Origin: Octopus vulgaris
Lineage: Eukaryota
DNA: 64,000 bases
NCBI GenBank assembly: GCA_951406725.2
Contig: OX597815.1
Span: 186,558,001-186,622,000 of the forward strand
Reading direction: 5' to 3'
The position numbers were made by a program, and so were the translations under genes. Numbering within the stretch: the first letter of the stretch is position 1; each line of letters begins with the position of its first letter. This document shows, in pieces, positions 36,074 through 36,800 of this stretch. Below the pieces are notes generated by a model. That model ran no database searches. It saw nothing but the letters and a program-made list of their open reading frames with translations, and was not told where the DNA came from.

Positions 36074-36231
36074 ATAGATATATATAACTAAAAATAAGGG
36101 TGTCTGAGAGACACCACCATGCCGAAATATCAGTCAAATCCCTGACACTAAAAACCACCTTAAATGTTCATATCGTACCATGAGATAAGACAGAGGGACA
36201 AAATAGACTAGCAAAAAGATATTACTGAATA

Positions 36232-36290
36232 ATTCAAGATCCTGGGTTTCTAGCTTTGCTTCAAATAAGCTTTGCCATCATCAGTTGAAT
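36232..36290 (-). ncRNA. Type I hammerhead ribozyme motif, intact core
   Basis: attcaa-CTGATGA-tggc..gcta-GAAA-cccagga-TC-ttgaat; stem III has a mismatch. Confidence 0.7.
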
Positions 36291-36501
36291 ACATCAGAGC
36301 ACATAAATACAAATATATATATGCAGAACAAACGTTATACTTACATATCGATAATTAAATATCAATATTATCAAGTGTTTGGCGGGCAATTTAAACTGGC
36401 CTTGTACATTCGTGCATATATATGTATGTATGGACGTTCGTATATGTAAGTATAACGTTTGTTCTGCATATATATATATGTGTATTTATGTGCTCTGATA
36501 T

Positions 36502-36560
36502 ATTCAACTGATGACGGCAAAGCTTATTTAAAGCAAAGCTGGAAATCTAGGATCTTGAAT
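36502..36560 (+). ncRNA. Type I hammerhead ribozyme motif, intact core
   Basis: attcaa-CTGATGA-cggc..gctg-GAAA-tctagga-TC-ttgaat. Confidence 0.8.
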
Positions 36561-36800
36561 TATTCAGTAATATCTTTGTGCTAGTCAATTTTGTCCCTCT
36601 GTCTTATCTCATGGTGCGATATGAACAGTTAAGGTGGTTTTTAGAGTCAGGGATTTGACTGCTATTTCGGCATGGTGGTGTCTCTCAGACACCCTTATTT
36701 TTAGTTGTAAAAAATTATTACCTTTGTATGGTATTCTTTCCCATGCTGACCACTTGATAATATCGATATTTAAATATCGATATTATTCTTATTTATAAAT

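What the first reader, a model, noticed from the sequence alone, without database searches (positions are those of the whole stretch)
36086..36783. Circularly permuted 338-nt HHR monomer in an inverted pair, with stem II covariation
Seen: the + copy starts at atatgtaag (36442) and returns to the same point at 36780. The - copy starts elsewhere (cacttgataat, 36377) and reads straight through that junction. The stem II closing pair is C-G in one arm and U-A in the other. Inference: both were copied from a circular or multimeric ~338-nt RNA, the retrozyme signature. The + copy looks potentially active.
Basis: partly seen in the sequence, partly recalled or inferred. Interest (0 to 1): 0.82.

Follow-up and report, generated by a model that had tools for sequence, protein, structure and literature searches.

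The report
Penelope-type hammerhead mini-retroelement, inverted insertion
This is one back-to-back insertion of a dispersed, protein-free repeat with a unit of about 485 bases (not 338) that carries a hammerhead-ribozyme-like motif and was likely pasted in by the enzyme of a Penelope-like jumping gene, a known kind of element.

Summary
The inverted pair, both hammerhead (HHR) motifs, the AUC site at 36554 and the read-through in the minus arm are in the sequence. The 338-nt circle and the covariation do not hold up.

The locus belongs to a dispersed family (at least 225 exact motif matches). Its head-to-tail period is about 485 nt. The 338-nt junction occurs once in 2.8 Gb and is a private 148-nt deletion at an ATAT microhomology.

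Copies have two fixed 3' ends about 95 nt apart, both running into (TA)n. They have variable 5' ends and an abutting inverted arm. This is Penelope-like element (PLE) insertion anatomy, and intact RT + GIY-YIG PLEs in the same genome show it too.

Best reading: a non-autonomous, retrozyme-sized PLE passenger copied from a more-than-unit RNA. Whether that RNA is linear or circular is unresolved; I lean linear. No parent PLE was found, and cleavage and circles are untested. A related 494-nt family inserts 2.2 kb away. This scan noted similar inverted PLE/HHR inserts in two other genomes. Verdict: new member of a known kind, modest interest.

The parts
36086..36377 (-). Inverted, 5'-truncated arm; its 3' end is the family's fixed site E, followed by a short (TA)n and then (TG)n
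36232..36290 (-). Type I HHR motif of the minus arm (core 36284-36278, GAAA 36250-36247, predicted cut after 36238); a private U-to-C change at 36246 breaks the second pair of stem III
36345..36348 (-).
36375..36377 (.). Inversion point; the two arms overlap by 3 nt (GTG)
36375..36800 (+). Direct, 5'-truncated arm of the ~485-nt unit, including the tail; its 3' end is the family's fixed site T
36495..36567 (+). Type I HHR motif: stem I 36502-07/36555-60 with extension 36495-98/36564-67, core 36508-14, stem II with a 3x3 A-rich internal loop, GAAA 36542-45, near-palindromic stem III 36545-53, predicted cut after C36554
   Evidence: cleavage untested
36707..36800 (+). Tail of about 95 nt: head of the next unit, lying between fixed ends E (36706) and T (about 36800); contains a 30-nt palindrome at 36757-36786
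36803..36851 (.). (TA)n microsatellite, the likely insertion target

Best explanation
The locus is an inverted pair of truncated copies of a protein-free, ~485-nt repeat with a hammerhead-type motif, likely inserted in one event by the reverse transcriptase and GIY-YIG endonuclease of a Penelope-like element acting in trans.

Shown: the unit length, two fixed 3' ends about 95 nt apart that both run into (TA)n, variable 5' ends, back-to-back arms joined with little or no overlap, arms longer than one unit, and intact PLEs with the same anatomy in the genome.

Inferred: the PLE protein nicks (TA)n on both strands and starts reverse transcription at two internal sites of the RNA (E and T). Both cDNAs stop early and are joined head to head (GTG overlap here). 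The RNA was longer than one unit, most likely a linear read-through transcript of a partial-tandem copy. The minus arm lost 148 nt by a jump between two ATAT, during copying or later. The HHR would cut as a dimer through its palindromic stem III, if it cuts at all.
For: Period 475-495 nt in natural copies. In loci picked by an internal motif, 126 of 139 arms end at E (61) or T (65). Of all 89 exact T-end matches in the genome, 54 have an abutting inverted arm, and 48 of those 54 end at E. 277 of 292 E/T ends are followed by a TA-type run, against 75 of 319 5' flanks (the T set was partly chosen for this). No open frame over 75 codons in a natural 1.5-unit copy. No shared non-family upstream sequence among 319 arms beyond 4 pairs. 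The genome holds many GIY-YIG matches and 781-aa frames with RT + GIY-YIG. That family has the same E and T ends in (TA)n, and 9 of its 11 inverted arms end at E. The anatomy matches published PLE insertions (PMC8557442; PMC3846280). Two internal RT start sites that make the tail were shown in vitro for an anole PLE, with unprocessed RNA the main template (PMC11167929). Opposite-strand minimal HHR pairs 100-700 bp apart are described (PMC4209133).
Against: No autonomous parent found: no nucleotide homology between the unit and 50 PLE loci. 7 of 240 family loci had PLE coding fragments nearby, and the 3 inspected were separate insertions. The tail (about 95 nt) is longer than the published 30-40 nt and the 38 nt of the intact family here. 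The HHR lacks the conserved G10.1-C11.1 pair and matches no Rfam hammerhead family. Linear versus circular template is not decided by these data, and the related family reaches about 2.2 units.
Confidence: 0.75

Rival explanations
1. Same PLE-driven insertion, but the template is a true retrozyme circle of about 485 nt, made by HHR double cleavage of a dimeric copy and ligation, then copied by rolling-circle reverse transcription. This differs from the best explanation only in the template.
For: 43 of 319 arms exceed one unit. Three copies hold two HHR motifs 483-488 nt apart. Subfamily-level compensatory changes occur in stems I and II (15, 16 and 9 rows), and stem III is palindromic. The related family has arms of about 2.1-2.2 units. 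Circles are shown for coral, mussel and axolotl retrozymes (PMC7229834).
Against: 0 of 319 arms reach two units; the longest is 782 nt (weak, few such arms would be expected). No same-strand neighbours one period apart among the 100 listed places (read by eye). 5' ends at the predicted cut are not clearly enriched (6 against 3.3 expected, P = 0.11). The base of stem II is non-canonical. 8 of 9 Xenopus dimers did not cleave in one study.
Confidence: 0.3
2. The copies are only truncated 3' ends (pLTR plus tail) of an autonomous PLE not yet found, as this scan concluded for two other genomes.
For: Identical insertion anatomy. Only 150 of 6136 GIY-YIG candidates were scored, so a parent may be missed.
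Against: Long arms lead back into the unit rather than into a 3' UTR or ORF: 37 exact read-through matches, 43 arms longer than one unit, and no shared upstream sequence.
Confidence: 0.07
3. One reading: both arms were copied from a 338-nt circular RNA whose stem II closing pair covaries.
For: The minus arm does read across a junction that would close a 338-nt loop.
Against: The junction is single-copy. The + arm itself contains 67 nt of the supposedly absent spacer (36375-36441). The 4 internal jumps found in 240 loci are all different. The pair is mismatched in 66 of 70 copies.
Confidence: 0.02
4. A MITE or foldback DNA transposon that inserts at TA, with long terminal inverted repeats.
For: Inverted repeats and TA-rich flanks.
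Against: The two outer ends differ (E against T), the centre is variable and 5'-truncated, 35 of 89 T arms have no abutting inverted partner, and an HHR motif with compensatory changes is present.
Confidence: 0.02

Closest known systems
Endonuclease-bearing Penelope-like elements (Neptune/Poseidon types): pLTR, inverted 5'-truncated copy and tail (PMC8557442, PMC3846280, PMC11167929)
   Same: Two fixed 3' ends with a tail between them, 5' truncation, abutting inverted arm, microhomology joins and deletions, microsatellite targets, type I HHR upstream of the 3' end
   Different: No ORF; the unit closes on itself at ~485 nt; tail about 95 nt rather than 30-40; no homology to the PLE families sampled here
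Metazoan non-LTR retrozymes (PMC7229834; bioRxiv 10.64898/2026.07.22.740005)
   Same: Non-coding, low-GC unit of a few hundred nt with one type I HHR, head-to-tail read-through, coexisting with PLEs and proposed to be mobilised by them
   Different: No long tandem arrays found (at most 1.6 units); unit above the 170-400 nt given for expressed circles; minimal/PLE-type HHR with a mismatched base of stem II; circle and cleavage not shown; full PLE insertion signature visible in the copies
Non-autonomous Chlamys PLEs such as MRC1 (PMC8557442, passage)
   Same: Non-autonomous PLE passengers with pLTRs and head-to-tail insertions
   Different: Those generally resemble an autonomous family at the 3' end, and their clade lacks canonical HHRs; here there is an HHR and no parent was found
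Minimal HHRs of metazoan PLEs (PMC4209133)
   Same: Extra base after A9, long helix II, palindromic helix III suited to dimers, opposite-strand pairs 100-700 bp apart
   Different: G10.1-C11.1 is absent (C.A, A.A or a gap opposite A); stems I and II both carry 3x3 internal loops

Membership tests
Non-autonomous PLE derivative | Fixed 3' end(s) with an optional tail, variable 5' truncation | tested here: met
   126 of 139 arms end at E or T; 5' ends spread along the unit
Non-autonomous PLE derivative | Inverted 5'-truncated copy abutting the 5' end | tested here: met
   54 of 89 T arms; 48 of 54 end at E
Non-autonomous PLE derivative | Insertion into microsatellites / AT-rich targets | tested here: met
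   110 of 120 E ends and 167 of 172 T ends followed by a TA-type run
Non-autonomous PLE derivative | No coding capacity; intact PLE protein available in the genome | tested here: met
   Longest open frame 75 codons; 781-aa RT + GIY-YIG frames elsewhere
Non-autonomous PLE derivative | Sequence homology to the ends of an autonomous partner | tested here: inconclusive
   None by blastn in 50 PLE loci; only a short look-alike motif at the T end; most PLE copies not examined
Non-autonomous PLE derivative | Mobilisation by PLE protein | not testable with these tools
   Needs an in vitro priming assay
Non-LTR retrozyme | Non-coding unit of a few hundred nt with one type I HHR core | tested here: met
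   Period 475-495 nt; core and stems I-III pair in most of 83 copies
Non-LTR retrozyme | Tandem copies with at least two HHRs | tested here: inconclusive
   3 loci with two HHR motifs (each with a core or GAAA change in one copy); 0 of 319 arms reach two full units
Non-LTR retrozyme | Self-cleavage and circular RNA monomer | not testable with these tools
   Needs cleavage assay, northern blot or RNase R
Canonical type I HHR | G10.1-C11.1 pair closing stem II; match to an Rfam hammerhead model | tested here: not met
   Pair formed in 4 of 70 rows and never as G-C; no Rfam hammerhead hit

The most novel reading that the evidence does not exclude
This genome holds a clan of ~490-nt retrozymes (at least two related families) whose copies carry the complete PLE insertion signature. 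They are cut by a hammerhead subtype with a conserved mismatch at the base of stem II, circularised, and primed by a resident Neptune-type PLE protein at a short shared T-site motif. That would be copy-level, directly testable proof that animal retrozyme circles are mobilised by PLE proteins, which current papers infer from co-occurrence and phylogeny.
Probability: 0.25. Interest if true: 0.6.

Novelty: new member of a known kind. Interest (0 to 1): 0.3.

Why it matters
The locus itself is an ordinary, decayed insertion. The family is a clean case of a retrozyme-sized HHR unit bearing the PLE insertion fingerprint (two reverse-transcription start sites, inverted arm, (TA)n target) beside intact PLE ORFs. 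Published links between animal retrozymes and PLEs rest on co-occurrence and pLTR phylogeny, mainly in vertebrates. Here the partnership and the linear-versus-circular template question could be tested with defined RNAs and proteins.

Tried and rejected
Rfam: no match at gathering score in the window, and no hammerhead at E up to 10 in 36050-36850.

Search for an autonomous parent: blastn of the unit against 30 + 20 GIY-YIG loci, tblastn of PLE proteins against 240 family loci, and 5'-flank all-against-all. None found. L092 looked like pLTR-ORF-pLTR but proved to be separate insertions.

Pile-up of 5' ends at the HHR cut: 6 against 3.3 expected, P = 0.11; truncation rate 0.76 per 100 nt downstream of the cut and 0.51 upstream of the motif; inconclusive.

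Sequencing runs: no RNA holder listed. Contigs of 4 runs were laid on one natural unit and no joint matching the 148-nt skip was listed, but contigs cannot show absence, ends or circles.

Covariation control: cells with double changes exceed all 500 shuffles, but the number of such pairs (4) does not (341 of 500). These are a few inherited events, so support is modest.

TSDs could not be read because both flanks are microsatellites.

Lunse et al. on dimeric PLE hammerheads (PMC5785218) was not held.

Literature searches for an earlier description of this family listed none. Repbase, Dfam, published repeat libraries and all supplements were not seen and may already contain it.

Full report
CONTEXT. 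The window lies on contig C2 of a 2.8-Gb, 227-contig genome that is rich in microsatellites. It looks to me like an octopus genome; that label is recalled and comes from no call. Below, E and T are the family's two fixed 3' ends.

WHAT IS THERE. Two copies of one repeat sit back to back: a minus arm at 36377 to 36086 and a plus arm at 36375 to about 36800, overlapping by GTG. They are 94% identical over 268 nt, and each is about 96% identical to its closest relative elsewhere. Both carry a type I hammerhead-type motif. In the plus arm the core is at 36508-14, GAAA at 36542-45 and the predicted cut after C36554. Rfam has no hammerhead match here. Both outer ends run into (TA)n.

THE FAMILY. The family continues upstream of 36442 in 29 of the 30 best loci and downstream of 36780 in all 30. 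Natural copies longer than one unit give a period of 475-495 nt, and the tail reads through into a 148-nt spacer at 37 exact places. Six further one-mismatch hits are unrelated DNA. It is a 148-nt deletion between two ATAT, one of four internal jumps seen in 240 loci, all different. The plus arm itself keeps 67 nt of that spacer. So 338 is the roughly 486-nt unit minus a private 148.

ENDS. Among 139 distinct arms from loci picked by an internal motif, 61 end at E, 65 at T (about 95 nt further) and 13 elsewhere, while 5' ends are spread. All 89 exact T-end matches were fetched: 54 have an abutting inverted arm, and 48 of these end within 11 nt of E. Over 319 distinct arms from 240 loci, after dropping low-complexity and palindrome-only hits, 110 of 120 E ends and 167 of 172 T ends are followed by a TA-type run. 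43 arms exceed one unit, none reaches two, and the longest is 782 nt (the sets were chosen by motif, so these fractions are not genome-wide rates). No arm leads into an ORF or a shared non-family upstream sequence.

This is the anatomy described for endonuclease-bearing PLEs: 5' truncation, partial tandems, an adjacent inverted copy, a tail at one end and microsatellite targets (PMC8557442, passages; PMC3846280, passages). For an anole PLE, the tail was traced in vitro to two internal reverse-transcription start sites, both DNA strands were cut and extended, and HHR cleavage was not needed (PMC11167929, parts 1-2 of 4).

IN-GENOME CONTROL. A GIY-YIG search scored 150 of 6136 candidates, many in 781-aa frames. 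These have RT (just under the Pfam cut-off) and GIY-YIG domains, with a cysteine-rich linker like that described for Neptune/Nematis PLEs (clade not tested by tree). That family also has two ends, 38 nt apart, in (TA)n. Of 30 loci, 23 were T ends, 5 read through and 2 were other; 9 of 11 inverted arms end at its E. It shares no blastn homology with our unit. Its T end does resemble ours over the last ~15 nt, an AT-rich motif that is a lead only.

THE RIBOZYME. Across 83 distinct copies, stems I and III, the distal part of stem II, and three of the four pairs in the proximal part pair in over 90% of cells. The two arms therefore hold independent private changes. Real double changes lie elsewhere, in two pairs of the stem I extension and one in stem II. 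They are subfamily-level events and suggest, modestly, that the structure was under selection in source copies.

Stem III is a palindrome in most copies, as in PLE minimal HHRs thought to work as dimers with low activity (PMC4209133, parts 1-2 of 4; PMC6765202, passages). For this locus the hammerhead-shaped fold lies 5.3 kcal/mol above the predicted minimum for the + copy and 9.2 for the minus copy. A transcript across both arms would form one long duplex (-472.6 kcal/mol). With one HHR per strand, the locus cannot release a monomer.

LINEAR OR CIRCULAR. Arms longer than a unit need a tandem transcript or a circle. For a circle: three two-HHR copies, the covarying pairs, and a related family with arms of about 2.2 units. 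Against: no arm of two units, no clear pile-up of 5' ends at the cut (P = 0.11), the mismatched stem II base, and the anole result. I lean linear, about 0.6 to 0.3. Public runs could not decide this (see Tried and rejected).

SECOND FAMILY. At 38976-39732 lies another inverted insertion with a 493-nt period. It has 1754 candidates, and the 40 scored are 96-98% identical. It has two ends about 108 nt apart, an HHR motif with a perfect palindromic stem III and an A.C mismatch at the same position, and 72% similarity to our family over the 57-nt T region (E = 3e-4). The design recurs, and the mismatch appears to be a trait of the clan.

COMPARISON AND NOVELTY. It works like a non-autonomous PLE passenger and resembles metazoan non-LTR retrozymes (PMC7229834, passages and Discussion). 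A 2026 preprint already argues that these are PLE derivatives (10.64898/2026.07.22.740005, parts 1-3 of 5; supplements not seen). Membership as a retrozyme in the strict sense (arrays, cleavage, circle) is not shown. Searches listed no paper on this family. An octopus repeat annotation reports recently active Penelope families and does not mention ribozymes in its main text (PMC13282606, passages). PMC12602865 (passages) added nothing. Earlier notes of this scan describe comparable inverted PLE/HHR inserts in two other genomes and none with this sequence.

VERDICT. Observation partly confirmed; interpretation partly supported. New member of a known kind; interest 0.3.

Noticed in passing
window 38976-39732: Second, younger HHR-bearing family (period 493-494 nt) with the same inverted/tail anatomy in (TA)n; HHR core at 39531 with an A.C mismatch at the base of stem II; distantly related at the T end; arms up to about 2.2 units in L357 and L345. 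A better candidate for a real retrozyme circle than the finding itself.
   Followed up: partly
L182-L193 (e.g. L185:2126-4468): Near-identical, apparently intact PLE family with a 781-aa RT + GIY-YIG frame, an HHR-like motif with a U3-A8 type core near its 3' end, and a 38-nt tail; at least two further PLE families (L194, L195 types) are present.
   Followed up: partly
L060 (minus arm, about 1204-1564): A 77-nt internal jump whose upstream side ends at the predicted HHR cut position; single case, could be chance.
   Followed up: no
L159:2836-3145: Inverted insertion of a third relative, 77% identical to the second family over 179 nt.
   Followed up: no
window 33223-33284: Short degenerate (CCCTAA)n telomere-like run.
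   Followed up: no
window 33708-34073, 35207-35573, 54998-55369, 51987-52464: Two-copy tandems of 183-184 nt and 235 nt SINE-like repeats, some in inverted arrangement.
   Followed up: no
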